Source: a virus
Taxonomy: Duplodnaviria; Heunggongvirae; Uroviricota; Caudoviricetes
Virus record (IMG/VR): IMGVR_UViG_2660237951_000012
Coordinates: 1 to 18,756 of that record
DNA length: 18,756 nucleotides
Strand: one strand, 5' to 3'
In this document: in pieces, positions 4,998-18,756 of the stretch
How positions within the stretch are numbered: position 1 is the first letter of the stretch
Layout of the letters: the number at the start of each line of letters is the position of its first letter
Position numbers and translations under genes: made by a program
Notes under the pieces: generated by a model
The model's input: the letters and a program-made list of their open reading frames with translations, nothing else
What the model was told of the DNA's origin: nothing
The model's database searches: none

Positions 4998-5002
4998 CCT
5001 AT

Positions 5003-5029
5003 AAAAAAGGCCGCAGAGCGGCCTTTTTT
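5003..5029. terminator. bidirectional intrinsic terminator between convergent Q and the 835-aa gene
   Basis: A6-GGCCGC-aga-GCGGCC-T6: GC stem flanked by an A-run and a T-run, so it can terminate on both strands. Confidence 0.7.
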
Positions 5030-5030
5030 A

Positions 5031-7505
5031 TTATACCTTTGTAATATGCTTTAATATTTCAATCACTTTAGCAACATATGATTGACTTACGCCGCCATCT
5101 CCTTCATATTCAGATATTTTATTTAAAGACTGTTTACATGCTTCCATATATTTAACTTTATTACTCTTCGATAGCTTATTGTAATTTGACAAATGAAAAT
5201 CTTTATATCTCGAAAACTGCCTCAGAGAGTAAATATCCACATCCAAATTACTAAGAAGGTTGTTTGCCTTTTCGAAATTAGAGAATACAATATTACCATC
5301 TGGTATCTTTTCGCTTGAAAGCAAATATATTTTTGCTTGCTGGGTATCAATATTGTTCGTGTGATATTTTGCTCGCTTTTCAGCTAACGCATATGCCTGG
5401 TCAATATACTGTTGTGCTTTTGGGTAATTTTTGTAAGCAATAAAACACATTGCGTATTGCAACCAGAAGTGTGGGTTTGAATTTAGCCATGGAACTTCAA
5501 TTTTTAACTTTTCATAATATCGTTGTAGCGTTGATATTTTCATACTTTCAGGAAGCAGCTGCTCAACAAAAGAAAACCTGAGCATAGCTTTAAATATTCT
5601 ATCCTGTTCATAATCCTTAGAGTTTAATTGATTAAACCTTGATGCAATAGTAAGCATTCGCTCTATAATAACAGTAGGAGTGAAATTATTTTTTATTAGA
5701 TGTATGCAAAATAAACTAGACCCGTTAATGATCCTACCGCCATGGAAATTAAATATTGCCTTAAACGCACTGTTATTAGTAAAATCCGGATCATAAATCA
5801 AATCATTGCCTGCAAGATCAGATATAATCCCTCGATTCGTTTCAATGCCAAGTATTTGACAAAGACAAATTGAAATAATTGTGTTTTCATGACTCTTACT
5901 CTTTTTAATCCCGGTAATTAAATCACTTATCTTATTTTTTATTTGCGGCGACTCCAAAAGAGTAAGCAATGCAATTGAGAATTGACTGTTATTCTCATTA
6001 GCTAAATATCTTACCTTTTGCTCTACACTAAGCCCTGCATTATCTCCCCAAAGACCTAAGTTATCTATTATTTTTGAAAAATCTTTTAACTCTACCTCAT
6101 CTAACATATCAATATTTATTTCAGAATATTTGAATTTTATGCGCTCCAAATCATCTCTGTGATATTCATGATCTGCAACACGGGCAGTAGCAAGTATTAG
6201 TACATTTTCGTAAGCAGCTCTGCCCACATGTTCCATTAATTCAAGATTCTTCTCATACCCATCAAGTAATATGATATTTTTCATGGATGATTGTGCTATA
6301 TAGTCAATATCTGATATAAAATCACCATCTATATCGGCCACTGTATAAACATCATAACCACCGACGGATAAAACACTCCTTAGCTCTTTCAATAAGATGG
6401 TTTTTCCGTTTCCAAGCGCCGAATAAATAATTACATTTTTTGATTGTTCAATTAATGAAACAGCTTTATCAATTTCACTTCTTTTTACTAAAAACGGTAC
6501 CTTAGTATTACCAAGTATAAAATTATCAATATGATGATCATCCAAATCACCATACATCAACATTTTTTCAACCTCTTCATCTCTAATAGAACTTGATTCA
6601 TTGGTTATATCATGAAGAAAAAGTGACTGTAGCTTATACTCCTGCTCTTCTGATACTGAAGTAATATTATCTCTTATTCTATTGGCAAAACCACTCAAAC
6701 CTATAGGCAAAACGGTACCGAATTTTTCTAGAGTAAATTCTAATTCGATATCAGGATTGAGACTAGTTACAAAAAATGTTTTTTCTTTTAATTGAGGTAA
6801 GGTAGAAAGGATTTTTTTTATTTCAATATCATACATTGAATAACCGATAAAAACGATCGCGCCACACCTATCTAAATCTCTTTTAAAATAATAGAACCAT
6901 TCAGAGTCAGTAAAAGAGTCAGGGCTTGAATAAGATGAATCAGAAAGTTTGAATGAATCATCAAGCGTTTCAGTAGAAATATTATTAATTGAACCATTAA
7001 GATGAATACATAAATTCTTGCGCTTATAATATTCCTTTGTTTTATGCTCAAGATCTATAGTTTCGAATTTATTACCGGATGATTCAGCTGCGATCTCAAA
7101 ACATCGGTCATAATTAGTTGTGTAACAACGTTTCCATGGTAGCGATGCGATTATATTTTGGTTCTCCGATGTTGTTTTTATAGAATAATTATAAATTAAT
7201 AGTTCTATTAATTTTAATGACGAGTTTTTTGCTAAGTAATAATCAGAAGAAAAGCGTAGGTTATCATTTTTAGGTATTGAACAAAGACCACATAATATAT
7301 GAGATAGCTCTATTGAAGAAGAAGGATTAGTATCATTAATATTCGTAGCTTCTTTAGAGAAACCCGCCCCCAAAAACAACATTGCCTTTCCAGAACAAAT
7401 ATTTGTAACTAGTTTAGCATAATCAATAGTTTGCTTGCTAATAATCAACTCTGTAAAATTAATATCCATTATAAAACCTATCATATAAATTAAGTGGGAT
7501 TTCAT
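5031..7505 (-). CDS. SIR2-like domain / P-loop NTPase / TPR-like repeat protein, candidate anti-phage defence
   Basis: The N-terminus carries the SIR2-type motif set LFLGAGFS, TTNYD, IHLNGS and VFIGYSMYD. The middle has a Walker A-like YSALGNGKT, Walker B-like NIILLDGYE and LILATAR. The C-terminus is helical and repeat-like. The listed ORF starts on TTG at 7538; ATG at 7505 (or 7469) is more likely. Strongly AT-rich by eye. Confidence 0.8.
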   Translation of the reverse strand: MKSHLIYMIGFIMDINFTELIISKQTIDYAKLVTNICSGKAMLFLGAGFSKEATNINDTNPSSSIELSHILCGLCSIPKNDNLRFSSDYYLAKNSSLKLIELLIYNYSIKTTSENQNIIASLPWKRCYTTNYDRCFEIAAESSGNKFETIDLEHKTKEYYKRKNLCIHLNGSINNISTETLDDSFKLSDSSYSSPDSFTDSEWFYYFKRDLDRCGAIVFIGYSMYDIEIKKILSTLPQLKEKTFFVTSLNPDIELEFTLEKFGTVLPIGLSGFANRIRDNITSVSEEQEYKLQSLFLHDITNESSSIRDEEVEKMLMYGDLDDHHIDNFILGNTKVPFLVKRSEIDKAVSLIEQSKNVIIYSALGNGKTILLKELRSVLSVGGYDVYTVADIDGDFISDIDYIAQSSMKNIILLDGYEKNLELMEHVGRAAYENVLILATARVADHEYHRDDLERIKFKYSEINIDMLDEVELKDFSKIIDNLGLWGDNAGLSVEQKVRYLANENNSQFSIALLTLLESPQIKNKISDLITGIKKSKSHENTIISICLCQILGIETNRGIISDLAGNDLIYDPDFTNNSAFKAIFNFHGGRIINGSSLFCIHLIKNNFTPTVIIERMLTIASRFNQLNSKDYEQDRIFKAMLRFSFVEQLLPESMKISTLQRYYEKLKIEVPWLNSNPHFWLQYAMCFIAYKNYPKAQQYIDQAYALAEKRAKYHTNNIDTQQAKIYLLSSEKIPDGNIVFSNFEKANNLLSNLDVDIYSLRQFSRYKDFHLSNYNKLSKSNKVKYMEACKQSLNKISEYEGDGGVSQSYVAKVIEILKHITKV

Positions 7506-7566
7506 AGTTAGTTCATTTCTGAACACAAAGCAAGTCAATAGCCATAATAAAATCTTTAACGCGCAG

Positions 7567-7585
7567 TGCTTTCCCCGCCTCGCCC
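7567..7585 (-). other. P2 cos site (19-nt cohesive end)
   Basis: Minus strand reads GGCGAGGCGGGGAAAGCAC, a 19/19 match to the P2 cohesive end as remembered; orientation agrees with the inverted segment. Confidence 0.8.
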
Positions 7586-8154
7586 GCCCGCTTCATGTGG
7601 CGGTTTTAATGCAGTTGCATAGATACTATGGATCCGCACCAGCTCTGACCGCGAGCAGCTGGAACGGGCATCCCCGACGCATGCAAAAACATTCACTTGT
7701 TGCATGCACGGCTTATTTAATGACAAATCAACTTAAGCGTCACCGCAGCTCCCACAAAAAAACGTAACACCATGATTTTAGTGATATTTATGACTTTTTT
7801 AATTGCTTATTTAAGTCCGCCATATTGAAACCGTGCATTTTTTAGCCACCAATAACTTTAAAAAATTTACATTGCTTTCAATACCTTATCATCCGTAGTC
7901 CCTGCTTTTTACTTTGAGCTATATCAAAAAAAGCTCAAACATCCTTGATGCAAAACCAGTATTACACAACATAAAATGCAACCAGAAACAACGACATACT
8001 ATATGTTGTGTTGTTCAGGCTCTCTGTTCGGTGATATGCCAGATCACTTTGCGTTTAAACAGAGCATTATTTCAGGGCAAGACTTCGCTAAATAGTAACT
8101 CCGCCTCAGAAGCGCATATATCGGCGGAAATTGCCCTCTGCTTACAGGAGGAGA

Positions 8155-8268
8155 TATGAAGAAGTGCTATTACTGCATTCTCGTTCTGGCCCTCTTTGGC
8201 TATCCATATGGTAGTCCAAGTGGTTTGTCAGTAAACGTCAGTAATATCCATGTAAGTATTATTCTTTA
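8155..8268 (+). CDS. hypothetical 37-aa hydrophobic peptide
   Basis: ATG preceded by strong AGGAGG Shine-Dalgarno at 7-nt spacing; MKKCYYCILVLALFGYPYGSPSGLSVNVSNIHVSIIL; followed by a hairpin with T-run. No recognisable homology. Confidence 0.35.
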
Positions 8269-8282
8269 GTATGCTTCAAACA

Positions 8283-8311
8283 AAAAAACCACCTGCCAGG
8301 GTGGTTTTTTT
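8283..8311 (+). terminator. putative intrinsic terminator
   Basis: AAAAAAACCACCTGCCAGGGTGGTTTTTTT: CCACC/GGTGG stem followed by a T7 run. Confidence 0.5.
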
Positions 8312-8571
8312 GCGCCTGTCATCATTCCGATGAAAGACTAGCAAGACTTCGCTCGAGATGAATTATGCTTCGACAAAAGGTCACTCGCAATGGTTTTATT
8401 AGCCGAAATAGATGCTCTTTTATGACTCGAATCAAATAGCTGCCTTAAATTACATGCTAGCGATTCAATACAATTTAGCCTTCTACTTCAGCATGCTATT
8501 GCTCCTCATCTGCATTAGAGGCGCTTCGCATAATCCATTCAAAGGCATATAAAATCACGCTGCATTTTTAC

Positions 8572-10848
8572 TCAAATGGGTAACAAAAATCCAGGCCACT
8601 CATCAGCGACCTGATAATTGAAATATTTCCCGTAATAATTTACGGTCGCGCCACGCGCCAGCGCCTCAAGCTCCCATCGCTGCGGCCTGATACCGTTCTG
8701 AGCAAGGTCAACGCGGATACGGGTAATTTGCATTCTTTCCGACCGGGTCAGTCTGGCCGATGGTGCAATTTCATGTGGTTTTAACGGGCTTCCGTTTCTT
8801 TGCTGACGATTTGGTGTTCTCAGGTCGTGTTTTAATGCCCCCCTGAGCGCCCTCACGACCTCCGTGTCATTCCATTCGATAACACCGTCATCAACCAGAT
8901 TAAGCACGGCTGCGGCGTGTTCAGAAGGTGTGGGAGCCGGTAACGAAGTATCACCACCGGTGAGCTTTCCACAGTTATTGACAGGACTCCGAGGCGCGGC
9001 GATGCCGCTTTTTAAAGTCAAAGGCTCAACGACCGGCACTTTCGGAACAATGCGCCAGTCCGTCGTTCTGGTGATATGAATATGACGCGCGCCGAGATGC
9101 GGCGCGTAAATGCCGACCACTCTCTCGACTTCTTCCTCGTACTCGTTAACGTCATCCGACGGGCTACGGGCGACCCTGACAGTCTGACAATCGCGCGGGA
9201 CATTTGCCCCGCCCTGCGCGCTGATATACAACGCAAAATCACCACTGTCTGCAGCGGCGCGTGCAGCCTCGACGCGCTCGTCAAACTCATCAGCAATGCT
9301 GACGCCGCGAGGCAATTTGCGTAGTTCACGGTAAGCCCCCATTGTCGGCAGACCAACCGTTTTAAATTGCGGAATGCGCCACGTTGACGCCCATGCGGTA
9401 ACAGCAGCAGCTGTGTCTTTCAGCGGCCTACCGGTATCATTATCGAGCTGACCATCCAGTGCATAGCCGTCGATGTTTTTTGAGATGTATTTCGCGATAT
9501 ATCCCGCAGCACCGCCCCGGTTAAGGTGTTTTGCCTGAAAACGGTTTCGCGCGGCTCCTCTTTCGTCGCCATCCTCTTTGAGCGCATAGCGACGCATGAT
9601 TTCAATAATCTGGTTACGCTGGCGTGGATTACAAAAAAGCATCATATGCCAGTGCGGCGTTCCGTCGTGGTGTGGTTCAACAACACGCAAACCGTAGGCC
9701 TGTAAATCATTATCCTTGAATGCCGTGCGCATCAGGCTCCAGATACGGCAGAGATAACGCTGCGCATCCTTTGGATTAAATGCCTCATCGTTCCAGCCGT
9801 GATTTAGCTGGACGGTTTTACTTTCGCCTTTTCTGACCTGACGTGTCGGGTGATACTTTGACGGCGCGGTCAGCGTGATAAACATCCCCACATCACCCTC
9901 TGCGGCGGCGTAACGCTCAATACCGGCGATGGTGTTCATCAGCTCCATCCGGCGAATTTCTGGATTAGAAATACTGCCCATCACCTTACTGATAAGGTCG
10001 ATGCGCTCGCCGGTTTCCTTGTTTTCAAGGTCACACGATTTAAGAAATTCCAGATTTGCCTGGCGGCGCGCACGCACATCACGAATGGCATGTTTACTGG
10101 CATAAGGAGAACGGTCTTTATTGACCTCCCCGACAGCAATCAGTAACGCCTCATGCCAGCGCATACGCTGGCCTTTAAGCTGATGAGTCCACCACTCATC
10201 GTTAAACAGGCGGGCAATGGCAGAATATGCCTGCCTCGTGGTCATCTGCCCTTTACGGTATTTTTTCCAGTAAAGCGGGGAAATATTGAAAGCACGTGCA
10301 GCGCCAGCAACATGACCATACAGATGTGCCTGCGCCTCATCCGTAAACAGCGATTCTTTTTCGCCATGCGCATCCACCCAGGCATCGCAGAGTTCCTCAT
10401 ACATCATGAAAAGCTGCGATGAGATACGGGCAGCAAACTTTTTCAGCTCCTTGTCATTCATTCCCGGCAGGCGCGCATAGTGGTCACGCTCTGCCAGAAA
10501 CAGCAACGACGCGTCGGTGTTCATTTCATGGCGCTGATTCACACGCTCAATGCGCGGCCATAAACGACGCTGAAAAGTGGATGTGAGGAAATAAAACCCG
10601 TGCACCGGGCTTTTATTGCGCCGGATGTAGTCATAGCGTGAAGTAAACAGCGAGCGCAAAAAGTAAGGCAGGCGGTTAATCGTGGATAAAACACCTTGCA
10701 CCTGACGCATCTCGTCACGTGTAAGGGGTCTTTCGCGCCCGACAGCCTCGCGTGGCGCGTTCCATGCATAAGCACCGGTAAACGCCTTACCGGTGCCTGC
10801 GGCAAATGCTGACGGAGGGACAAAACGCCCGGAGGCTTTAACGGCCAT
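8572..10848 (-). CDS. A: replication initiation endonuclease A (rolling-circle initiator)
   Basis: Matches remembered P2 gpA across its length (MAVKASGRFVPPSAFAAGTGK...HWHMMLFCNPRQ...YIAKYISKNIDGY). The listed ORF begins 14 codons upstream at 10890; the internal ATG at 10848 corresponds to the P2 start. Confidence 0.9.
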   Translation of the reverse strand: MAVKASGRFVPPSAFAAGTGKAFTGAYAWNAPREAVGRERPLTRDEMRQVQGVLSTINRLPYFLRSLFTSRYDYIRRNKSPVHGFYFLTSTFQRRLWPRIERVNQRHEMNTDASLLFLAERDHYARLPGMNDKELKKFAARISSQLFMMYEELCDAWVDAHGEKESLFTDEAQAHLYGHVAGAARAFNISPLYWKKYRKGQMTTRQAYSAIARLFNDEWWTHQLKGQRMRWHEALLIAVGEVNKDRSPYASKHAIRDVRARRQANLEFLKSCDLENKETGERIDLISKVMGSISNPEIRRMELMNTIAGIERYAAAEGDVGMFITLTAPSKYHPTRQVRKGESKTVQLNHGWNDEAFNPKDAQRYLCRIWSLMRTAFKDNDLQAYGLRVVEPHHDGTPHWHMMLFCNPRQRNQIIEIMRRYALKEDGDERGAARNRFQAKHLNRGGAAGYIAKYISKNIDGYALDGQLDNDTGRPLKDTAAAVTAWASTWRIPQFKTVGLPTMGAYRELRKLPRGVSIADEFDERVEAARAAADSGDFALYISAQGGANVPRDCQTVRVARSPSDDVNEYEEEVERVVGIYAPHLGARHIHITRTTDWRIVPKVPVVEPLTLKSGIAAPRSPVNNCGKLTGGDTSLPAPTPSEHAAAVLNLVDDGVIEWNDTEVVRALRGALKHDLRTPNRQQRNGSPLKPHEIAPSARLTRSERMQITRIRVDLAQNGIRPQRWELEALARGATVNYYGKYFNYQVADEWPGFLLPI

Positions 10849-11113
10849 ATGAGCCAAAAGCCTCTGAACAACGCTTGCTGAGTTGCTCAACCTGCGCGTT
10901 TAAATCAGCAAAAGACTTTGCGCTTCCGGTCAGAATATCGTGATGCATCAGGCCGGAAACGAGCTGGCTTAATTTCGGGTAATAACCAACCACCGCCAGC
11001 CATTCCTGACCGGCGTTTTTACCGCTTTCCGCTCTCTTTTTCTCGTGGAGAATAAACTGAAAGCTGTCACTGGTAACGACATAACGTTCGCCAATTTCAA
11101 TACGAATACTCAT
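10838..11113 (-). CDS. small P2 early-region protein upstream of A (orf83-like)
   Basis: 91 aa with GGAG Shine-Dalgarno 6 nt upstream of the ATG; its stop overlaps the A start. Position matches the small ORFs that precede A in P2; function unknown. Confidence 0.5.
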   Translation of the reverse strand: MSIRIEIGERYVVTSDSFQFILHEKKRAESGKNAGQEWLAVVGYYPKLSQLVSGLMHHDILTGSAKSFADLNAQVEQLSKRCSEAFGSYGR

Positions 11114-11188
11114 GCCGTTCTCCGGTAATGTTTGTTTTTTGCTTCAAAGACTGACTGGCAGGAAACACAACGCGTGGCTGACGGATAA

Positions 11189-12784
11189 GCCGCACGACGG
11201 GCACAGGACGCCACCACAGCACGAAAAGGCCTTGTCCAGCTCAGTAGTGCCACCAACAGCACGTCTGAAACGCTCGCTGCAACACCAAAAGCGGTAAAAG
11301 CAGCATATGACCTTGCTAACGGGAAATATACCGCACAGGACGCCACCACAGCGCGAAAAGGCCTTGTCCAGCTCAGTAGCGCCACCAACAGCGATTCTGA
11401 AACGCTTGCGGCAACACCAAAGGCGGTTAAGACAGCGTATGACCTTGCTAACGGGAAATACACTGCACAGGATGCCACTACAGCGCGAAAAGGTCTTGTC
11501 CAGCTCAGTAGCGCCACCAACAGTGATTCTGAAACGCTGGCCGCAACACCAAAAGCGGTGAGGTCTGCCTATGACAATGCTGAAAAACGTCTTCAGAAAG
11601 ATCAGAACGGTGCGGATATTCCGGGAAAGGATACCTTCACGAAAAATATCGGTGCCTGTCGTGCTTATAGCGGCGCTTTGAGCACTGAAGCCGGAAACTG
11701 GACAACCGCGCAGTTTATTGACTGGCTAGAGTCTCAGGGAGCCTTTAATCATCCCTACTGGATGTGCAAGTGTTCCTGGTCATACGGTAATAACAAAATT
11801 ATTACCGATACTGACTGTGGGACTATTCATCTTGCAGGTTGCGTGATTGAGGTTATGGGCGTTAAAGCAGCAATGACCATTCGTGTGACCACTCCGAGTA
11901 CATCAAGCGGTGGTGGTACCACCAGTGCGCAATTCACGTATATCAATCACGGAGCTGATTATGCGCCGGGCTGGCGACGCGACTACAATACGAAAAATAA
12001 GCAACCGGCTTTTGCATTAGGGAAAACAGGAAATACGGTTGCAAATAATAAAGCGGTAGGATGGAACTGGGACAGTGGTGCTTATTGTGCACAGGATGGC
12101 GGAGCATCAAAAATGGTGCTGCATTTTTACACGGGTGAGGGAAGTTGTCCGGCAATGCAGTTTCTTGTGGATTATAAAAACAGGGGGATTTTTTACAGGT
12201 CGGCACGTGATGGGTATGGATTTGAGGCTGACTGGTCAGAGTTTTATACAACATCACGAAAGCCAACACCTGCGGATATTCTTGCTCTGGCATTATCAGG
12301 CGGAAGCATGTCAGGCAGCATAAAATTTATCAATGATGCCTTCCTGATTTGGGAAAGAAACACTGACTGGGCGAAAATTGGATTTAAAAATGATTCAGAT
12401 GCTGATTCTGACTCATACATGTGGTTTGAAACTGGTGATAATGGCAATGAATATTTTAAATGGCGCATCAGGTCTGGCAGCACAACAAAAGATCTGATGA
12501 CGCTTAAGTCTGATGCACTACGGGTTACCGGGCAGGTGATACCATCAAATTTCAGCAATTTTGACTCCCGCTATGTCCGGGATCTCCGACTTGGTGGTGC
12601 AGCCACATACAAACCTGCGAACAATGGCATGACATGGACACATCAGGCACCGTCCGGGTGTGTATATACCGGCATTATTGTTCAGGATACCGGCTCAAAC
12701 TCTGCCGATAACATTGGTGGCGTATATTACAGACCGGTTCAGAAATACATTAACGGGACATGGTACAACGTGGCGCAGGTATAA
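11189..12784 (+). pseudogene. H: tail fibre protein H, 5'-truncated
   Basis: The frame is open from the stop at 11186 with no ATG, GTG or TTG before the GTG at 11558. It encodes the H repeat region, the conserved WERNTDWAKIGFKNDSDADSDSYMWFETGDNGNEYFKWR block and the C-terminus RPVQKYINGTWYNVAQV. The roughly 200 N-terminal residues of P2 H are absent. Confidence 0.8.
11201..11575 (+). repeat. tandem 132-bp repeats (about 2.8 copies) in the tail-fibre H gene
   Basis: The unit encoding AYDLANGKYTAQDATTARKGLVQLSSATNS(D/T)SETLAATPKAVKT recurs with period 132 nt (TATGACCTTGCTAACGGGAAATA at 11306 and 11438). It generates the spurious ORFs 11110..11520(-) and 11307..11561(+). Confidence 0.85.
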
Positions 12785-12787
12785 TTT

Positions 12788-13315
12788 ATGCAGCATTTGA
12801 TAAATATAACGGCAGGTAATCCAAAAACGGTTGAACAATATCAATTGACAAAGGACTTTGATGTTGTCTGGTTTTTTACAGAAGATGGTAAGAACTGGTA
12901 CGAAGAACAAAAGTATTTTGCTGATGACACGATAAAAATAGCGTACGACAAAGATAATATTATCCGCTATGTAGAAAAGGATGTGACAGCTATCAGACCG
13001 GATGGATTAAGTGTTGTTGAAGTGCCGGATATTACTGCTAACCGACGGGCGGACATTTCAGGGAACTGGATGTTTAAGGACGGCAAAGTGATTAAACGCA
13101 TTTATACGGCAGAGGAATTACAACAGCAGGCAGAAATTCGGAAAGCCAGACTTCTTGCAGATGCTGAATCCGTGATTTTGCCGCTGGAGCGCGCTGTCAG
13201 GCTGAACATGGCAACAGAGGAGGAGCGCACACGGCTGGAGGCTTGGGAACGCTACAGCGTTTTGGTCAGTCGTGTGGATCCTGCAAATCCTGAATGGCCG
13301 GAAATGCCGCAATAA
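12788..13315 (+). CDS. G: tail fibre assembly protein G
   Basis: 175 aa, [40 protein letters not shown]...[14 protein letters not shown] matches remembered P2 gpG. Confidence 0.9.
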
Positions 13316-13348
13316 GTTGTATAAGCTCTGGTGTGAGATTACATATCT

Positions 13349-13392
13349 ATGGCACAGAGTAAAGCCTAATCTGGCAGTCCGCTCTGTGCCAT
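13349..13392. other. 11-bp perfect inverted repeat (ATGGCACAGAG / CTCTGTGCCAT) with 22-nt loop
   Basis: Seen directly, just downstream of G at the boundary of the AT-rich cargo island. Confidence 0.4.
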
Positions 13393-13510
13393 TACCGGAC
13401 ATACTGAGCAGAAGGCTAAAAAGGACGCTTTCAGGACATATAGCAAGGGAGCAAGGATGAAAGAATTAACCAAGTATATTTAATGTTTCAATCATGATAG
13501 TTTCTGAATT

Positions 13511-13533
13511 AAAGGGGGCTACCCACCCCCTTT
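13511..13533 (-). terminator. putative hairpin terminator downstream of the 92-aa gene
   Basis: AAAGGGGG-ctaccca-CCCCCTTT stem-loop immediately after the stop at 13536; flanking T-run is weak. Confidence 0.4.
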
Positions 13534-13535
13534 AA

Positions 13536-13814
13536 TTACTTGTTCCACTCAGTCAGAATTTGGTTACTAACTTCATCTGAGAGATTGTACCAATAAGCTG
13601 AGTTATTGGTTGCGTCTACAACAATAAGCTTATCATCACTATCCATGACCGCCCTCACAATTTTGGCTGCATCCTCGGCAGAGTAACTACAGTTAACATA
13701 CCAGTTCGATTCAGTTGTTAAAGCCCAATTTCCTAAAGATTTAATTGCATCATACACAGCCGCATAATCTTTCGTTTTAATGAGGTCGTAAGTAATAAAT
13801 AAATTATTAGCCAT
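13536..13814 (-). CDS. hypothetical 92-aa protein (Z/fun-position cargo)
   Basis: ATG with GGGAG Shine-Dalgarno 8 nt upstream; MANNLFITYDLIKTKDYAAVYDAIKSLGNWALTTESNWYV...; no homology recognised. Confidence 0.6.
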   Translation of the reverse strand: MANNLFITYDLIKTKDYAAVYDAIKSLGNWALTTESNWYVNCSYSAEDAAKIVRAVMDSDDKLIVVDATNNSAYWYNLSDEVSNQILTEWNK

Positions 13815-13840
13815 AAATCATCTCCCAAAGGACAAAGAAA

Positions 13841-13866
13841 AAAGCGCCTAGAAAGGCGCTCATATA
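13841..13866 (-). terminator. intrinsic terminator between the DUF3606-like gene and the 92-aa gene
   Basis: Minus strand reads AGCGCC-tttcta-GGCGCT followed by TTTTTTCTTT, lying between the stop at 13867 and the next Shine-Dalgarno. Confidence 0.6.
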
Positions 13867-14046
13867 TTAATGGTCTTTAAGCCATGCCTGTACTTTCTTA
13901 GCCGAATGACCTACAGCCTGTACGGCTTGAACAAGTTTGGCCTCGCTAACTCCAAACTTTTCAGCCCAATCACGTCTCTCGTAATCCTGTTTGATACTTA
14001 TTAAATCATTGTCAGGGGTACCGATTTTGGTCTTATCATCAGCCAT
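13867..14046 (-). CDS. DUF3606-like small protein
   Basis: MADDKTKIGTPDNDLISIKQDYERRDWAEKFGVSEAKLVQAVQAVGHSAKKVQAWLKDH with GAGGA Shine-Dalgarno upstream of this ATG; the listed ORF extends to 14085. The motif pattern resembles the DUF3606 family from memory. Confidence 0.55.
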   Translation of the reverse strand: MADDKTKIGTPDNDLISIKQDYERRDWAEKFGVSEAKLVQAVQAVGHSAKKVQAWLKDH

Positions 14047-14537
14047 TTTACTGATTCCTCGTGATACAGGCTTATACCTGCCCATTAGTTATATGGCTCC
14101 CGTGCTGCTTCGTAAACGTTCAATAATCAAACAATTGACACTGATCATAAAACCAGTTATAGGATTTGACTCTAGCTTGGATATATGATGATGCCACCCC
14201 CTTTATATTGTTGTCGGTAACTCACAGACATTGAACTCATGCTGGTGAGTGAAAGGCTACATAAACGCCCAACATTTAAACTGCCCTCAGCAGCGTTCGC
14301 GGAGCAATATACAGGCTTCGTATTCAATCCTTGCCCTACGAGAAACCCTAGCCGTTGCCTCGTTTTCAAGTGTCAGGAAGTTCTTTGTCAGACCTCATAC
14401 AGTCTTGGGCTGGGTGAGGTGCATGGGGGAAGTTGAAGCCTTAACTGTTGAGGTAAATCGAACCATAAGTGTGCAATTTTTCAAGCCCGGCGCTATTTTA
14501 GTATTGAAAACAATTAGTACGCCCCCAAGGACAACTC

Positions 14538-15230
14538 ATGATCGAATTTATCGCAGAGCATATAAACACAGTAAGTACACTTATCTCCGCTTTGGCAGCA
14601 TTGCTAACAGCAGTTGCTACATTTTTCTTGTGGAGAGTAACAAGGCTATTAGCAGACGAGACAAAAAGGATGGTTGACGCATCAGTTCAACCTCATGTCG
14701 TTGTGACTCTTGAACCAAATTCTTGGGCTGCTTTTTATTTTGATATCAATATTGCTAATACCGGAAATGCCCCAGCCTATGATATTGAAGTCGGATTTAA
14801 TCCCCCACTGGTTAATGCAGAACATAGAAAAAATGAAGGTATACCATTTAGCAAGGTTAGCGTATTGAAAAACGGCCATTCCCTTAACAGCAGTCTTTGT
14901 AAGTATGACCAGATTAAAGATCAAGTTTATTCTGTTAGTATTAGCTGGTCTAAACAGCCGGGCTCAACTGAAAGAGAGCGGAATGAGTATTCTTATGATA
15001 TGGCTTCTTTCGAGGGGGTTAGCTACTTAGGTGCAAGGAGTCCAATGACACAGATAGCTGAGCAGATGAAAAAGATTAGAGAAGACTGGAGGCCGATTTC
15101 CCAGGGAAGCAAAAAAATTAAAACAGACAACTATAATTCAAGTGACAGAGCCGAGGAACAACGAGCACGTGAAGAGTGGTATCAGACCACTGCAAAGAAA
15201 TGGGATAAAGAAAAGCAAAAAGATAACTAA
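14538..15230 (+). CDS. hypothetical 230-aa membrane-anchored protein (Z/fun-position cargo)
   Basis: AAGGA Shine-Dalgarno 7 nt upstream; one N-terminal transmembrane helix (TLISALAALLTAVATFFLW), a central domain and a Lys/Glu-rich C-terminal tail; followed by a terminator. No homology recognised. Confidence 0.7.
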   Translation: MIEFIAEHINTVSTLISALAALLTAVATFFLWRVTRLLADETKRMVDASVQPHVVVTLEPNSWAAFYFDINIANTGNAPAYDIEVGFNPPLVNAEHRKNEGIPFSKVSVLKNGHSLNSSLCKYDQIKDQVYSVSISWSKQPGSTERERNEYSYDMASFEGVSYLGARSPMTQIAEQMKKIREDWRPISQGSKKIKTDNYNSSDRAEEQRAREEWYQTTAKKWDKEKQKDN

Positions 15231-15360
15231 TACAATTGACCTGCTCCCCATAAATTAGCATACCACAATCTCAGGTCCGCTCTTCGCTCAAAACAGGCTG
15301 TCAGATTTGACAGAATTTTGGTTACGTAATTTGTCAGTTGGAAACAGAGAGAGTACAAAT

Positions 15361-15395
15361 CAAGGCAGGCAAGCTGATTGCCCGCCTTTTCTTTA
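15361..15395 (+). terminator. putative intrinsic terminator after the 230-aa gene
   Basis: AAGGCAGGC...GCCCGCCTT imperfect stem (one mismatch) followed by TTTTCTTTATCTGTTGTTT. Confidence 0.5.
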
Positions 15396-15490
15396 TCTGT
15401 TGTTTCATCCACTGACCAGCCAGGTCAAATAGCGTCTCATGCACTGCCCAACAGAAAATAGTTGCACCCATTAACCACGGAGTTAAACGG

Positions 15491-15658
15491 ATGAGTGACT
15501 ATCATCATGGCGTGCAGGTGCTGGAGATTAACGACGGCACCCGCGTGGATGAATCACTGGCCGCGCTTTATGGCGATATCGGTAAACAGGCGGAGTCGCT
15601 CATCGGTAAGGCTGGCAGTATGGCGACCAGATTCACGGGTATGACGGGGGCGGGATAA
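15491..15658 (+). pseudogene. in-frame fusion remnant: tail sheath FI N-terminus joined to tail protein U C-terminus
   Basis: The 55-aa ORF starts MSDYHHGVQVLEIN (remembered FI start) and ends ...SMATRFTGMTGAG with a TAATG overlap onto D, which is the natural U/D junction. Implies deletion of FI, FII, E, T and most of U. Confidence 0.55.
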
Positions 15659-16821
15659 TGCTGGATGCGCTGACATTTGATGCAGGCAGTACGCTGACGC
15701 CGGATTACATGCTGATGCTCGACAGCAGGGATATTACCGGCAATATCAGCGACCGTCTGATGAGCATGACCCTGACGGATAACCGGGGCTTTGAGGCTGA
15801 CCAGCTTGATATTGAACTGAACGATGCCGACGGGCAGGTCGGGCTGCCGGTTCGTGGCGCTGTCCTGACGGTGTATATCGGCTGGAAAGGTTTTGCCCTG
15901 GTATGCAAAGGGAAATTTACCGTTGATGAGGTTGAACACCGGGGCGCACCGGATGTAGTCACCATCCGCGCCCGGAGTGCAGATTTTCGCGGGACGCTCA
16001 ATTCCCGCCGGGAAGGCTCCTGGCATGACACCACGCTCGGTGCGATTGTTAAGGCGATAGCCACCCGTAACAGGCTGGAAGCCAGTGTCGCTCCGTCACT
16101 GGCCGGAATTAAAATCCCGCACATCGACCAGTCGCAGGAGTCTGATGCGAAATTTCTGACCCGTCTTGCAGAACGCAACGGCGGTGAGGTGTCGGTAAAA
16201 ATGGGAAAACTGCTGTTTCTCAAAGCGGGGCAGGGGGTGACGGCCAGCGGTAAAAAAATCCCGCAGATTACCATCACCCGCAGCGATGGTGACCGTCACC
16301 ATTTTGCGATTGCTGACCGTGGAGCCTACACCGGCGTAACGGCAAAGTGGCTACACACCAAAGACCCGAAGCCGCAAAAGCAGAAGGTAAAACTGAAACG
16401 CAAAAAGAAAGAGAAACACCTGCGCGCACTGGAGCACCCGAAAGCGAAACCGGTCACGCAGAAGAAAGCGCCAAAAGTACCGGAAGCGCGCGAAGGTGAA
16501 TACATGGCCGGTGAGGCTGACAATGTTTTTGCCCTGACCACGGTATATGCCACAAAAGCGCAGGCCATGCGCGCCGCTCAGGCGAAGTGGGATAAACTGC
16601 AACGGGGTGTGGCGGAGTTCTCCATCAGCCTGGCTACCGGTCGGGCAGATATTTACACGGAAACACCGGTTAAAGTGTCAGGCTTTAAGCGCGTCATAGA
16701 CGAGCAGGACTGGACAATCACTAAGGTGACACATTTTCTTAATAATAGCGGCTTCACGACGTCCTTAGATCTTGAGGTCAGGCTTTCTGATGTGGAGTAC
16801 GAAACAGAAGATGATGAGTGA
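15658..16821 (+). CDS. D: tail protein D
   Basis: 387 aa, MLDALTFDAGSTLTPDYMLMLDSRDITGNISDRLMSMTLTDNRGFEADQLDIELNDADGQ... matches remembered P2 gpD, including the Lys-rich internal segment. Confidence 0.92.
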   Translation: MLDALTFDAGSTLTPDYMLMLDSRDITGNISDRLMSMTLTDNRGFEADQLDIELNDADGQVGLPVRGAVLTVYIGWKGFALVCKGKFTVDEVEHRGAPDVVTIRARSADFRGTLNSRREGSWHDTTLGAIVKAIATRNRLEASVAPSLAGIKIPHIDQSQESDAKFLTRLAERNGGEVSVKMGKLLFLKAGQGVTASGKKIPQITITRSDGDRHHFAIADRGAYTGVTAKWLHTKDPKPQKQKVKLKRKKKEKHLRALEHPKAKPVTQKKAPKVPEAREGEYMAGEADNVFALTTVYATKAQAMRAAQAKWDKLQRGVAEFSISLATGRADIYTETPVKVSGFKRVIDEQDWTITKVTHFLNNSGFTTSLDLEVRLSDVEYETEDDE

Positions 16822-16902
16822 TGTTTTTATTTTATCTGTTTGTTTTATAAGGATAAATTAACTAAAATAACACCATCAACAAAACCGGAAGAGGTGCTCG
16901 CG

Positions 16903-17121
16903 ATGTTTCATTGTCCTTTATGCCAGCATGCCGCACATGCGCGTACAAGCCGCTATATCACTGACACGACAAAAGAGCGTTATCACCAGTGCCAGAACGT
17001 GAATTGCAGCGCCACGTTCATCACCTATGAGTCGGTACAGAGATACATCGTGAAGCCGGGAGAAGTCCACGCCGTAAGGCCGCACCCGTTGCCGTCAGGG
17101 CAGCAAATTATGTGGATGTAA
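16903..17121 (+). CDS. ogr: Ogr zinc-finger late transcription activator
   Basis: 72 aa from the internal ATG: MFHCPLCQHAAHARTSRYITDTTKERYHQCQNVNCSATFITYESVQRYIVKPGE..., with CxxC...CxxxxC motif. The listed ORF start at 16840 is an upstream extension. Confidence 0.93.
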   Translation: MFHCPLCQHAAHARTSRYITDTTKERYHQCQNVNCSATFITYESVQRYIVKPGEVHAVRPHPLPSGQQIMWM

Positions 17122-17132
17122 TTACAAACAGA

Positions 17133-17159
17133 AAGCCCCTCAGTTGAGGGGCTTTTTTT
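17133..17159 (+). terminator. intrinsic terminator of ogr
   Basis: AGCCCCTCA-gt-TGAGGGGCT perfect stem followed by T7. Confidence 0.8.
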
Positions 17160-17222
17160 GTCGATGTGGTCAATGTGTGGACGTGACCAGAAATAAATCC
17201 TTTTATTTCATTGTATTACGCG

Positions 17223-17250
17223 TAAAAAATAAGCCCGTGTAAGGGAGATT
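17223..17250 (+). repeat. attR core of the P2-like prophage
   Basis: Exact copy of 889..916; overlaps the 3' terminator end of cyaR on the opposite strand. Confidence 0.85.
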
Positions 17251-17310
17251 ACACAGGCTAAGGAGGTGGTTCCTGGTACAGCTAGCATTTTATGGGTTAT
17301 GTTTTTCAGC
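17224..17310 (-). ncRNA. cyaR: CyaR (RyeE) Hfq-dependent small RNA
   Basis: Minus strand reads GCTGAAAAACATAACCCATAAAATGCTAGCTGTACCAGGAACCACCTCCTTAGCCTGTGTAATCTCCCTTACACGGGCTTATTTTTT, matching CyaR as remembered, including the terminator that forms the P2 att core. Confidence 0.85.
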
Positions 17311-17360
17311 GAAACGGATGATAACCTTAATAAATGCAGCTGTATGTGATCGGTTTCTAA
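17311..17360 (-). promoter_or_regulatory. cyaR promoter with CRP-like site
   Basis: On the minus strand, a -10 TATCAT lies 7 nt upstream of the RNA 5' end and TTAGAAACCGATCACA (TCACA half-site) sits around -40. CyaR is known to be CRP-activated. Confidence 0.55.
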
Positions 17361-17394
17361 GAATTTTCCATCCGGGAAAAATAATCGAAATTAA

Positions 17395-18756
17395 TCACTT
17401 ACCGTGTGGGTTACGCGTGGTTTCCCCGGAGAAATTACGCATCAGCAGCGCGTAATTTAGCTCAAGATCCTGCGGCACCGGGAGCCACACAGTATAACCA
17501 TCGCCTGGTGCTACCGGCATAGCTTCGCCTTTGGCGTTTTCCATGTGCTCAAGGGTAAAGTTAATGTTGCCTTGCGGCGTCATCAGCTCAAGGCTGTCGC
17601 CAACGGAGAATTTATTTTTCACTGCTACCGCCGCGAGGTCCCCCTTGCGCTCACCGGTAAACTCACCAACAAACTGCTGGCGGTCAGAAACCGAATAACC
17701 GTATTCGTAGTTCTGATAATCGTCGTGAGTATGACGACGCAGGAAACCTTCGGTATAGCCACGATGCGCCAGACCTTCCAGAGTTTCCAGCAGGCTGGTA
17801 TCGAACGGTTTGCCCGCAGCGGCATCATCGATAGCTTTACGATAAACCTGTGCGGTGCGTGCGCAATAGTAGAAAGATTTAGTACGGCCTTCGATCTTCA
17901 GCGAATGCACGCCCATTTTGGTCAGGCGCTCAACGTGGGCGATGGCACGCAGATCTTTCGAGTTCATAATGTAAGTGCCGTGTTCGTCTTCAAACGCGGT
18001 CATATACTCGCCCGGACGCTGGGCCTCTTCGATCATAAACACTTTGTCGGTTGGCGCGCCAATACCAAGCGTCGGCTCAACGTTTTGCACCGGAATCGGC
18101 TCGTACTTGTGTACGATGTTGCCGACGTCATCTTCTTTACCTTCCTGTACGTTGTACTCCCAGCGGCAGGCATTGGTGCAGGTTCCCTGGTTCGGGTCGC
18201 GTTTGTTAATGTAGCCCGAGAGCAGGCAGCGGCCGGAGTAGGCCATGCACAGTGCGCCGTGAACGAAGATCTCGATCTCCATATCCGGCACCTGATTGCG
18301 GATCTCTTCAATCTCTTCCAGCGACAGCTCGCGAGAGAGGATCACGCGGGTCAGGCCCATTTGCTGCCAGAATTTCACCGTCGCCCAGTTTACGGCGTTA
18401 GCCTGCACCGAGAGGTGGATCGGCATTTCAGGGAAGTGCTCACGCACCAGCATAATCAGCCCTGGATCGGACATAATCAGCGCATCCGGCCCCATTTCCA
18501 CCACCGGTTTCAGGTCACGGATAAAGGTTTTCAGCTTGGCGTTGTGCGGGGCAATGTTGACCACGACATAAAACTTTTTCCCCAGCGCGTGGGCTTCATT
18601 GATGCCGAGCTGAAGATTTTCGTGGTTGAATTCGTTGTTGCGCACACGCAGGGAGTAACGCGGCTGGCCCGCATAAACAGCATCTGCGCCATAAGCGAAA
18701 GCGTAACGCATATTTTTCAGCGTTCCCGCCGGGGAAAGGAGTTCCGGTTTAAACAT
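17395..18756 (-). CDS. yegQ: U32-family peptidase-like protein YegQ (TrhP)
   Basis: 453 aa, MFKPELLSPAGTLKNMRYAFAYGADAVYAGQPRYSLRVRNNEF... matches remembered E. coli YegQ; the start codon sits at the last bases of the window. Confidence 0.93.
   Translation of the reverse strand: MFKPELLSPAGTLKNMRYAFAYGADAVYAGQPRYSLRVRNNEFNHENLQLGINEAHALGKKFYVVVNIAPHNAKLKTFIRDLKPVVEMGPDALIMSDPGLIMLVREHFPEMPIHLSVQANAVNWATVKFWQQMGLTRVILSRELSLEEIEEIRNQVPDMEIEIFVHGALCMAYSGRCLLSGYINKRDPNQGTCTNACRWEYNVQEGKEDDVGNIVHKYEPIPVQNVEPTLGIGAPTDKVFMIEEAQRPGEYMTAFEDEHGTYIMNSKDLRAIAHVERLTKMGVHSLKIEGRTKSFYYCARTAQVYRKAIDDAAAGKPFDTSLLETLEGLAHRGYTEGFLRRHTHDDYQNYEYGYSVSDRQQFVGEFTGERKGDLAAVAVKNKFSVGDSLELMTPQGNINFTLEHMENAKGEAMPVAPGDGYTVWLPVPQDLELNYALLMRNFSGETTRNPHGK

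What the first reader, a model, noticed from the sequence alone, without database searches (positions are those of the whole stretch)
13316..15490. Second cargo island at the P2 Z/fun position with three unannotatable genes
Between tail-fibre assembly gene G and the FI start, where P2 carries Z/fun, lies a 2.2-kb AT-rich island. It encodes a 230-aa protein with a single N-terminal transmembrane helix and a Lys/Glu-rich tail (+ strand), and on the opposite strand a DUF3606-like small protein followed by a 92-aa protein. This position is a known accessory hotspot in P2-like phages; none of the three products resembles a structural or replication protein, so they are candidate superinfection-exclusion or abortive-infection factors.
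Basis: partly seen in the sequence, partly recalled or inferred. Interest (0 to 1): 0.7.

Follow-up and report, generated by a model that had tools for sequence, protein, structure and literature searches.

The report
Uncharacterised three-gene cargo in P2 hotspot
A 1.9-kb piece of foreign DNA in a known cargo slot of a decayed P2-type prophage carries three real genes of untested function (a membrane-anchored protein, a lone Cas2-like protein and a small DUF3606 protein); the same island was sequenced in 2003 and 2019, and a role in phage-versus-phage conflict is plausible but unproven.

Summary
Between tail-fibre assembly gene G and the FI start lies an AT-rich insert with three intact genes under purifying selection. 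The cargo proper is 13386-15274, bracketed by the only two copies of GTCCGCTCT in the window.

The island is not new as sequence. It is 97.8% identical to the 'Z-region' of P2-EC53 (AJ512682) and 98.3% to the viable phage R18C. It occurs in about 100 of 5,426 complete E. coli genomes.

It is a mosaic, not one system:
- **Leftward module:** DUF3606 (59 aa), a conserved terminator-like hairpin, then a 92-aa protein. It was lifted from the integrase end of a satellite-like island and still carries 33 codons of that integrase.
- **The 92-aa protein** has a confident Cas2/VapD-type fold with an invariant Asp10 and Ser36. It belongs to a large family of lone genes in temperate phages, without cas1 or CRISPR arrays.
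- **Rightward gene:** a 230-aa inner-membrane protein (RefSeq: DUF8453), predicted N-out/C-in, with a cytoplasmic Ig-like domain. It is solitary cargo on many mobile elements.

No protein matches a known defence system, structural protein or solved structure by sequence. A conflict function (exclusion or abortive infection) is plausible but untested. Interest is moderate.

The parts
13316..13393 (+). P2 backbone spacer after gene G with a hairpin (ATGGCACAGAG ... CTCTGTGCCAT, 13350-13393). This is the 'left inverted repeat' of AJ512682. It is shared with other P2-like phages whatever their cargo.
13377..13385 (+). Left copy of the 9-bp direct repeat GTCCGCTCT, at the left edge of the cargo.
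   Evidence: 2 matches in the 18.7-kb window, 0.06 expected
13382..13483 (+). Remnant of the last 33 codons plus stop of a tyrosine integrase of the L010 type (LCAITGHTEQKAKKDAFRTYSKGARMKELTKYI*). It is the scar of the donor island.
   Evidence: (tblastn E 4e-15, 64% identity)
13507..13537 (.). Perfect 12-bp palindrome (AATTAAAGGGGG N7 CCCCCTTTAATT). It is a terminator-like hairpin overlapping the stop codon of the 92-aa gene.
13536..13814 (-). Gene for a 92-aa stand-alone Cas2/VapD-like protein (phrog_1090). It has a ferredoxin fold plus a C-terminal helix. Invariant residues are D10, S36, D58 and D61.
13842..13861 (-). GC-rich hairpin followed by a T-run in the 52-nt spacer between DUF3606 and the 92-aa gene. 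It is conserved in the homologous islands. It may be an attenuating terminator and a recombination joint.
13867..14046 (-). Gene for a 59-aa DUF3606 protein (PF12244, phrog_10779).
14047..14157 (-). Promoter/leader region of the DUF3606 + Cas2-like module. It is 88-89% identical to the same region of the integrase-adjacent islands, and homology stops at about 14157.
14158..14537 (+). Upstream region of the 230-aa gene. Only the last 60-140 bp are shared with homologous loci. The remaining roughly 300 bp have no relative in the loci fetched and no significant RNA structure.
14538..15230 (+). Gene for a 230-aa bitopic inner-membrane protein (phrog_11802; RefSeq 'DUF8453'; ORF1 'putative lysogenic conversion protein' of P2-EC53). 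It has a TM helix at about residues 12-32, a cytoplasmic 7-strand Ig-like sandwich at 54-154, and two charged helices.
15275..15283 (+). Right copy of the 9-bp direct repeat GTCCGCTCT. The P2 backbone resumes here.
15284..15490 (+). P2 backbone upstream of FI, conserved in P2-like phages. It contains terminator-like hairpins (15298-15313, 15362-15388) and a long imperfect palindrome (15332-15416), the 'right inverted repeat' of AJ512682.
15491..15658 (+). 55-codon fusion ORF made of the first 18 codons of FI joined to the 3' end of U. It is the junction of a 4.96-kb deletion and is not a functional sheath gene.

Best explanation
The island is a mosaic 'moron' cargo sitting in the gap between two late operons of a P2-like prophage, the Z/fun hotspot. 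It was assembled from at least two independently mobile modules. Each has terminator-like hairpins downstream and candidate promoters upstream, although no consensus sigma-70 site was detected.

**Module 1 (13382-14157, leftward).** This is the integrase-proximal cargo end of a small satellite-like integrative island, captured by illegitimate recombination. It reads: promoter, DUF3606 (59 aa), leaky hairpin, 92-aa stand-alone Cas2/VapD-like protein, terminator, and a 33-codon integrase scar. The constant, functional core is the Cas2-like protein. It most likely forms a dimer with an acidic Asp10/Ser36 site at the interface and acts on nucleic acid. The small upstream gene is an exchangeable accessory or regulator.

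**Module 2 (about 14400-15274, rightward).** This is a solitary gene for a membrane-anchored protein. Its short N-terminus faces the periplasm. Its Ig-like domain and charged helical tail face the cytoplasm. Its strictly conserved juxtamembrane motif (ATFFLWRVT..LA.ETKRM) points to homo-oligomerisation or to docking on a conserved host inner-membrane component.

**What is shown and what is inferred.**
- Shown: gene structure, folds, topology signal, modularity, origin and selection.
- Inferred: expression from the prophage in lysogens.
- Inferred: a role in conflict between mobile elements, with the membrane protein acting in exclusion or abortive infection at the inner membrane and the Cas2-like protein acting as a nuclease.
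For: **Hotspot and prior sequence.** Other P2-like phages carry different genes between identical flanks. The literature names Z/fun as an accessory and defence hotspot. The same island is found in P2-EC53 and R18C.

**Reality of the genes.** Omega is 0.035-0.14. The genes are intact in a prophage that has lost FI-U and most head and tail genes. They are also the only survivors of a decayed islet in Pantoea leporis.

**Modularity.**
- Homology of the pair module to integrase-adjacent islands ends at about 14157.
- An integrase scar lies at 13382-13483.
- TM230 homologues occur alone next to integrases, relaxases, a P4 primase and IS elements in alpha-, beta- and gamma-proteobacteria.
- No recurrent neighbour appears across 72 loci.
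- Co-occurrence is 2 of 72.
- The same island backbone carries either TM230 or the Cas2-like pair in the same slot.

**Cas2-like protein.**
- 27 of 55 family members hit PF09827 below threshold over its full length.
- D10 at the end of strand 1 and S36 at the strand 2-3 turn are invariant. They match the catalytic positions described for Cas2, VapD and BPSL1038.
- Homologues are lone genes in temperate phages of four other genera. In the three records examined, the gene lies among early or lysogeny-control genes and points against its immediate neighbours.

**TM230.**
- The AF2 model has pLDDT 85.6.
- 53 of 53 homologues have more K/R after the TM helix than before it (3.64 against 0.32).
- The fold is an Ig-like sandwich.
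- Defence-type neighbours (PDC-S32/AbiJ_NTD4, PDC-M04A) sit beside homologues.
Against: - No experiment and no homology links any of the three proteins to a validated defence, exclusion or toxin function. PADLOC gives only noise (E 0.02-0.03).
- The promoter scan found no consensus sigma-70 site in the island, so lysogenic expression is inferred, not shown.
- The Cas2-like assignment rests on fold and sub-threshold profile hits. The ferredoxin fold is common, and ACT and other domains score nearly as well.
- DUF3606 also occurs in chromosomal, non-mobile contexts.
- The trio is conserved as a unit in two different contexts (P2 and Pantoea). A Pseudomonas locus places a Cas2-like gene directly upstream of a TM230 homologue. 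Complete independence of the modules is therefore not proven.
Confidence: 0.55

Rival explanations
1. DUF3606 and the 92-aa protein form a type II toxin-antitoxin (addiction) pair analogous to VapX/VapD. The Cas2/VapD-like protein would be an RNase or DNase toxin, and the upstream small protein its antitoxin. The pair would stabilise whichever element carries it and might abort infection.
For: - The 92-aa protein has a VapD/Cas2-type fold with a conserved Asp and Ser.
- It is a small two-gene unit with the smaller gene first.
- It always sits at element ends next to integrases.
- It persists in decayed elements.
Against: - On the same island backbone the upstream gene can be DUF3606, an unrelated 41-42-aa basic peptide, or absent, with the 92-aa gene intact.
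- In Staphylococcus, Enterococcus and Mannheimia phages the gene is alone.
- DUF3606 occurs alone in Yersinia and Burkholderiales.
- The genes are 52 nt apart with a terminator-like hairpin between them rather than translationally coupled.
- Their synonymous divergence differs sharply.
Confidence: 0.15
2. All three genes form one system. A Cas2-like sensor or nuclease and DUF3606 would control a membrane effector (the 230-aa protein) that collapses the membrane on infection.
For: - The trio is conserved at 94-95% identity as a unit in two unrelated contexts, the P2 hotspot and a Pantoea leporis islet.
- About 100 E. coli genomes carry all three.
- In Pseudomonas machongensis a Cas2-like gene lies directly upstream of a 45%-identical TM230 homologue on the same strand.
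- TM proteins with a soluble beta domain are common abortive-infection effectors (established knowledge; quotes this view).
Against: - 70 of 72 TM230 loci lack a Cas2-like gene within 6 kb, and none of the 25 viral Cas2-like loci outside the P2-type island has TM230.
- No conserved neighbour of TM230 was found.
- In the island the two units are divergently transcribed and of different origin.
- The two families are alternative cargo in the same slot of one island family.
Confidence: 0.1
3. The genes are not about phage defence. The lone Cas2-like protein could be a counter-defence decoy that poisons host Cas1-Cas2 spacer acquisition. The membrane protein could be a lysogenic-conversion factor that changes host physiology, as the original GenBank label suggests.
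For: - The fold matches Cas2 over its whole length, including E. coli Cas2 in the Cas1-Cas2 complex.
- The family is phage-borne in many CRISPR-bearing genera and never accompanied by cas1.
- The very high conservation of TM230 (45-50% identity between E. coli and Sphingomonadaceae) fits a conserved host target better than a fast-evolving phage target.
Against: - Cas2's role in adaptation does not need the catalytic Asp, yet D10, S36, D58 and D61 are invariant here.
- There is no evidence of interaction with Cas1.
- The family also occurs on satellite-like islands. Whether those strains have an active CRISPR system was not checked.
Confidence: 0.1
4. The island is decaying junk DNA with chance ORFs.
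For: - The prophage is heavily degraded.
- About 300 bp of the island has no recognisable content.
- It contains an integrase scar.
Against: - Omega is 0.035-0.14.
- Hundreds to thousands of homologous clusters exist across phyla.
- The structure models are confident.
- The ORFs are intact in a viable phage.
Confidence: 0.02

Closest known systems
Z-region of prophage P2-EC53 (GenBank AJ512682; ORF1 'putative lysogenic conversion protein') and the fun(Z)-position morons of phage R18C (MN016939; PMC6823313)
   Same: It is the same island: 97.8% and 98.3% nucleotide identity over all 2,175 bases, in the same position between G and FI. The R18C paper already notes ORFs of unknown function here, one labelled DUF3606.
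   Different: Those records annotate only ORF1 (EC53) or call everything hypothetical. The following were not described there: the Cas2-like fold, the membrane topology, the integrase scar, the module boundaries and the wider distribution. The copy in this window sits in a defective prophage.
Cas2 / VapD / BPSL1038 superfamily of small ferredoxin-fold nucleases
   Different: It falls below Pfam's Cas2 threshold and has no sequence hit to any PDB chain. There is no cas1, CRISPR array or VapX nearby. The motif is D10-X25-S36 ('TES'), not BPSL1038's D11-X20-SST. No activity has been tested.
P2 fun(Z), old and tin, and the defence cargo of P2/P4 hotspots (Rousset et al. 2022, PMC9122126; PMC13586616; bioRxiv 10.1101/2024.10.15.618418)
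   Same: It is the same kind of locus: variable cargo between conserved P2 genes. Such cargo is often anti-phage and is retained even in defective prophages.
   Different: None of the three proteins matches any PADLOC model, including the systems reported from these hotspots. No phenotype is known.
Membrane-anchored prophage exclusion or abortive-infection proteins (for example P22 SieA, HK97 gp15, T4 Imm, Cap15-type effectors), recalled from established knowledge
   Same: It is a small prophage-borne inner-membrane protein encoded as a solitary moron. It has one TM helix plus a beta-rich soluble domain.

Membership tests
P2 Z/fun hotspot cargo | Lies between tail-fibre assembly gene G and sheath gene FI of a P2-like phage. 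| tested here: met
   G is Caudo_TAP. The FI stub, D, Ogr and the flanks are 97-99% identical to an intact P2-like prophage.
P2 Z/fun hotspot cargo | Content varies among P2-like phages while the flanks are conserved. | tested here: met
   Most P2-like phages match only 13316-13400 and 15275-15490. P2 variants carry unrelated 299-aa or 181-aa genes there.
Pfam DUF3606 (PF12244) | Score above the gathering threshold over the full domain. | tested here: met
   65.3 bits against 24.3, covering profile positions 1-54 of 54.
CRISPR-associated Cas2 (PF09827) | Ferredoxin-like Cas2 fold. | tested here: met
CRISPR-associated Cas2 (PF09827) | Sequence score above Pfam's gathering threshold. | tested here: not met
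   12.7 bits against 23.8. 27 of 55 relatives hit it, with a best E of 0.0011.
CRISPR-associated Cas2 (PF09827) | Encoded next to cas1 and a CRISPR array. | tested here: not met
   No cas gene appears in the listed genes or annotation of the loci examined around the 92-aa homologues. In the window, every ORF of 90 aa or more in unambiguous genes is accounted for by prophage, cargo or host genes. No dedicated search for CRISPR arrays was run.
Cas2/VapD nuclease superfamily | Conserved Asp at the C-terminal end of strand 1, plus Ser/Thr at the strand 2-3 turn. | tested here: met
   D10 and S36 are invariant in 55 sequences and lie at those secondary-structure positions. The positions are as described in PMC10491678.
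Cas2/VapD nuclease superfamily | Nuclease activity. | not testable with these tools
   This needs biochemistry.
BPSL1038 subfamily | D11(X20)SST motif. | tested here: not met
   The spacing here is D10-X25-S36 and the turn reads T-E-S (one search compared). The C-terminal third helix is shared.
VapXD-type type II toxin-antitoxin pair | Obligate pairing of the toxin gene with a cognate upstream antitoxin gene. | tested here: not met
   The upstream gene is DUF3606, a 41-42-aa peptide, or absent on one backbone. The 92-aa gene is alone in Gram-positive phages.
Known anti-phage defence systems (PADLOC-DB v2) | A significant match to any system component. | tested here: not met
   There is no hit for the 230-aa protein. 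The other two give E 0.027 and 0.019 only.
DUF8453 (name used by RefSeq for the 230-aa protein) | A match to that model. | not testable with these tools
   The model is not in the Pfam or NCBIfam copies at hand, which give no hit. The name appears in RefSeq annotation of identical genes.
Bitopic N-out/C-in inner-membrane protein | A single hydrophobic helix with the positive-inside signal on its C-terminal side. | tested here: met
   53 of 53 homologues show it, with 0.32 K/R before the helix against 3.64 after it. No second hydrophobic segment is present. It is a prediction only.

The most novel reading that the evidence does not exclude
The 92-aa protein may represent a very large, uncharacterised family of lone, phage-borne Cas2/VapD-like proteins (2,428 clusters at 50% identity). 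The family would perform one conserved job for temperate phages and satellites of both Gram-positive and Gram-negative bacteria. That job could be a single-protein nuclease immunity or exclusion function. Alternatively it could be a Cas2 decoy that blocks CRISPR spacer acquisition. In some lineages (this island, Pseudomonas L078) it may have become coupled to the DUF8453 membrane protein as a two-part abortive-infection system.
Probability: 0.12. Interest if true: 0.7.

Novelty: new member of a known kind. Interest (0 to 1): 0.4.

Why it matters
The Z/fun slot of P2-like phages is an established accessory-gene hotspot that also carries defence systems. This island is one of its recurrent cargoes: about 2% of complete E. 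coli genomes, one viable phage, and a Pantoea genome. No function is assigned and no known system matches.

The analysis turns 'three hypothetical genes' into two concrete, testable units:
- A widespread lone Cas2/VapD-like protein of temperate phages.
- A highly conserved cytoplasm-facing membrane protein that travels alone on many mobile elements.

The analysis also documents how such cargo is built. A piece of a satellite-like island's integrase end was pasted into a phage hotspot. Both cargo islands of this prophage have outlived its virion genes, which fits the published idea that defective P2 elements persist as carriers of useful cargo.

If either unit proves to be an exclusion, abortive-infection or anti-CRISPR factor, it would add a new family. 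If not, the locus is an ordinary moron island.

Tried and rejected
- **Sequence searches against solved structures.** Searches with single sequences and with family profiles gave only noise.
- **NCBIfam.** Nothing was found.
- **PADLOC.** Nothing significant was found.
- **Rfam on 13000-17500.** Only CyaR, outside the island, was found.
- **A structured RNA in the long 5' region of the 230-aa gene.** The fold z-score is -0.9, so this was rejected.
- **Left and right 'inverted repeats' as island termini.** Each is mainly a self-complementary hairpin belonging to the P2 backbone, not a pair of cargo ends.
- **The 234-aa protein upstream of DUF3606 in Yersinia ruckeri as a TM230 relative.** It is not one.
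- **An 82-aa divergent gene of the donor island as part of the window.** It is absent.
- **Domain fusions of the Cas2-like family as functional hints.** Longer hits are tandem copies or a mis-called phage polyprotein, with no informative domains.
- **A conserved partner gene for TM230.** None was found across 72 loci.
- **The 190-aa E. coli paralogue.** It is an IS-truncated pseudogene lacking the TM helix.
- **Unavailable resources.** The afdb50 fold library was not available. Nilsson et al. 2004 and Christie & Calendar 2016 are not held in the paper library. No paper mentions the protein accessions or DUF8453.
Full report
**1. What is in the sequence**

- A 230-aa ORF on the + strand (14538-15230).
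- A DUF3606 ORF on the - strand (13867-14085).
- A 92-aa ORF on the - strand (13536-13814).

The DUF3606 ORF really starts at the ATG at 14046, giving 59 aa. This is shown by its ribosome-binding site, by RefSeq annotation of identical genes, and by conservation in related islands.

The cargo has GC 0.41, against 0.55 for gene D. All three genes are under purifying selection when compared with diverged copies. Omega is 0.14 for the 230-aa gene, 0.035 for DUF3606, and about 0.1 with synonymous sites saturated for the 92-aa gene.

**2. Context: a decayed prophage**

The window is a roughly 17-kb remnant of a P2-like prophage beside ogr, the CyaR sRNA and trhP/yegQ. It holds, in order:
- integrase and repressor C;
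- scrambled baseplate fragments and a portal fragment;
- a SIR2-STAND gene at the old/tin hotspot;
- gene A and a truncated H;
- G, the island, D and Ogr.

Compared with an intact relative (strain ECamp52, L003), 4.96 kb from FI codon 18 to the end of U is deleted. The 'FI start' is therefore a 55-codon fusion stub. Both cargo islands remain intact while the virion genes are gone.

**3. Prior knowledge**

The whole 2,175-bp interval is 97.8% identical to GenBank AJ512682, 'Bacteriophage P2-EC53 proviral Z-region, ORF1'. Only the 230-aa ORF is annotated there, as 'putative lysogenic conversion protein'. The interval is 98.3% identical to the viable rabbit phage R18C.

The R18C paper describes ORFs of unknown function at the fun(Z) position, one labelled DUF3606. 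About 100 of 5,426 complete E. coli genomes carry the full island.

Recent hotspot papers treat Z/fun as a known accessory and defence hotspot. I found no paper that mentions these proteins, their accessions or 'DUF8453'.

**4. Borders**

Other P2-like phages share only 13316 to about 13393 and 15275-15490 with the window. The 9-mer GTCCGCTCT occurs exactly twice in the 18.7-kb window. Both copies are on the + strand, at 13377-13385 and 15275-15283, against 0.06 expected. The foreign DNA is therefore 13386-15274.

The 'left' and 'right inverted repeats' of AJ512682 are mostly self-complementary hairpins of the P2 backbone.

**5. The leftward module and its origin**

The stretch from the terminator after the 92-aa gene to 111 bp upstream of DUF3606 is homologous to the integrase-proximal end of small integrative islands. 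These occur in E. coli, Klebsiella and Pectobacterium, and several encode a major capsid protein, so they look like satellites. In those islands the pair lies convergent with a tyrosine integrase.

The window still carries the last 33 codons of such an integrase at 13382-13483, starting exactly at the cargo border (E 4e-15). The module was therefore copied from such an island.

Within that island family, the gene upstream of the 92-aa gene varies on an otherwise identical backbone. It is DUF3606, an unrelated 41-42-aa basic peptide, or nothing.

A GC-rich hairpin with a T-run lies in the 52-nt spacer between the two genes and is conserved. Synonymous divergence from island L010 is 0.41 for DUF3606 but saturated for the 92-aa gene. 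This indicates recombination between the two genes.

DUF3606 proteins also occur alone, in Yersinia ruckeri and in chromosomal neighbourhoods of Burkholderiales.

**6. The 92-aa protein**

No Pfam, NCBIfam or PDB sequence match reaches significance. The AlphaFold model built on 55 homologues is confident, with pLDDT 93.7. [quoted passage not shown]

- Other ferredoxin-fold proteins at similar scores, so the fold alone is not diagnostic.

Three further points support a Cas2/VapD relationship:
- 27 of 55 family members give sub-threshold, full-length hits to PF09827.
- Annotators of Staphylococcus phages call their homologues Cas2.
- The invariant polar residues D10 (end of strand 1), S36 (strand 2-3 turn), D58 and D61 (loop from helix 2 to strand 4) lie on the elements that form the dimer-interface active site in Cas2, VapD and BPSL1038.

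The family is large, with 2,428 clusters at 50% identity at E up to 1e-3. Almost all members are about 92 aa and stand alone.

I examined three temperate-phage homologues: Enterococcus phiFL1A, Staphylococcus SN8 and Mannheimia 587AP2. In each the gene is a lone ORF set among early or lysogeny-control genes and pointing against its immediate neighbours. This is the usual signature of a moron expressed from the prophage. No cas1 appears in the genes listed for any locus examined.

I therefore file it as a stand-alone Cas2/VapD-like protein, not as a CRISPR Cas2. Its activity is untested.

**7. The 230-aa protein**

It belongs to phrog_11802, and RefSeq now names it DUF8453. The AlphaFold model (pLDDT 85.6) has three parts:
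- One long N-terminal helix (residues 2-49) containing the only hydrophobic segment (12-30).
- A seven-strand sandwich (54-154).
- Two charged C-terminal helices.

In 53 of 53 homologues the 15 residues after the TM helix carry more K/R than the short N-tail (3.64 against 0.32). This predicts an N-out/C-in orientation with a cytoplasmic globular part.

The most conserved stretch is the end of the TM helix and the juxtamembrane segment, ATFFLWRVT..LA.ETKRM. Identity is still 45-50% between E. coli and Sphingomonadaceae or Xanthomonas.

Homologues are solitary cargo genes on many mobile elements:
- Next to integrases in Xanthomonas and Klebsiella.
- In an Erythrobacter element with a Mob_Pre relaxase.
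- At a tRNA-Gly island in E. coli NCTC11023, beside a DUF3800/PDC-M04A protein.
- As an IS-truncated paralogue beside an AbiJ_NTD4/PDC-S32 protein in a P4-like satellite, in about 460 E. coli genomes.
- At 26% identity in SPbeta-like Bacillus phages.

Clustering all neighbours within 2.5 kb in 72 species-level loci reveals no recurrent partner. One island backbone carries either this gene or the Cas2-like pair in the same slot.

**8. Do the three genes travel together?**

Mostly they do not. Only 2 of 72 TM230 loci contain a Cas2-like gene within 6 kb, and only 1 contains DUF3606. Among 44 viral contigs with the Cas2-like gene, the 19 that also have TM230 are all copies of this same P2 island.

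There are two exceptions:
- The identical trio (13386-15290, 94-95% identity, including the integrase scar and the right 9-mer) sits in Pantoea leporis outside any P2 context. It lies between the acetoin genes and another integrase fragment.
- In Pseudomonas machongensis, a Cas2-like gene lies directly upstream of a 45%-identical TM230 homologue on the same strand.

A functional link is therefore not excluded, but it is the minority pattern.

**9. Interpretation**

The best-supported reading is a mosaic moron island made of two independently mobile units. It is kept by selection and placed where it does not disturb P2 late transcription. Its position, its neighbours elsewhere and its persistence in defective elements fit a role in conflict between mobile elements. 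Published work on P2/P4 hotspots shows that many unannotated cargoes there are anti-phage.

Mechanistically I favour two actions. The membrane protein would act at the cytoplasmic face of the inner membrane, either blocking entry or triggering membrane failure, through a conserved host partner or by self-assembly. The Cas2-like protein would act as a dimeric nucleic-acid-directed enzyme, with the small upstream gene as a dispensable modulator. These steps are inference.

The rivals are:
- A VapXD-like toxin-antitoxin pair, weakened by the interchangeable or absent upstream gene.
- One three-gene system, weakened by the co-occurrence statistics.
- A counter-defence or host-physiology role.
- Junk DNA, which is refuted.

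**10. Verdict**

It is not new as sequence, it matches no known system, and nothing here demonstrates function. The most interesting lead is the large family of lone Cas2/VapD-like genes in temperate phages. Interest is moderate (0.4).

Noticed in passing
window 5031-7538 (-): An 835-aa SIR2 + STAND-NTPase protein (PF13289 at 1e-13; nSTAND3; PADLOC ThsA-type SIR2 at 3e-12) sits between gpA and the portal fragment. This is the P2 old/tin defence hotspot. It is presumably the 'first cargo island' of this prophage.
   Followed up: partly
window 1-17121, deletion junction at 15538-15546: The prophage is heavily degraded. Baseplate fragments are inverted and scrambled at 2791-3789, the portal is truncated, H is truncated, and a 4.96-kb deletion fuses FI codon 18 to the end of U. 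Both cargo islands are intact.
   Followed up: yes
window 13377-13385 and 15275-15283: GTCCGCTCT occurs only twice in the window, as direct repeats exactly at the two cargo borders (0.06 expected). Other P2-like phages have degenerate versions at the same places. It may be a recombination core of the hotspot.
   Followed up: partly
L044 4536-6755 (Pantoea leporis NZ_JALMEU010000002.1): The same three-gene unit (94-95% identity, including the integrase scar and the right 9-mer) lies outside any P2 prophage, between the acetoin (budABC-like) genes and a 99-aa integrase fragment. A 313-bp insertion sits at the position of window 14312.
   Followed up: partly
L078 about 5670-6699 (Pseudomonas machongensis): A 91-aa Cas2-like gene lies directly upstream of a TM230 homologue on the same strand, near an AlpA-like gene, an IS element and a 909-aa ATPase. 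This is an independent second adjacency of the two families.
   Followed up: partly
L014 5819-5944; L032 4370-4498; L134 and L136: A 41-42-aa basic peptide (M.K[RK].VVRSAITGQFV...HP.TT.TETIK) replaces DUF3606 upstream of the Cas2-like gene in some islands. Its function is unknown.
   Followed up: no
L007 5645-5911 and L014 5476-5751: A Cys-rich 88-91-aa protein (…GRHKCCGCAY…) precedes the cargo slot in two related islands that carry alternative cargo: TM230 in one, and the peptide plus Cas2-like gene in the other.
   Followed up: no
L021 about 4900-5573 (and about 460 E. coli genomes): A 70%-identical paralogue of the 230-aa gene in a P4-like satellite is cut by an IS3-family element that removes the TM helix. 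It lies next to an AbiJ_NTD4 / PDC-S32 gene and the P4 primase.
   Followed up: yes
window 17227-17312 (-): The CyaR/RyeE sRNA (Rfam 100.7 bits) lies between ogr and trhP, as in E. coli K-12.
   Followed up: yes
window 11110-11622: Tandemly repeated sequence in the 5' part of the H fragment matches several offset positions of the intact H gene. These are collagen-like tail-fibre repeats, and the out-of-frame ORFs there are artefacts.
   Followed up: no
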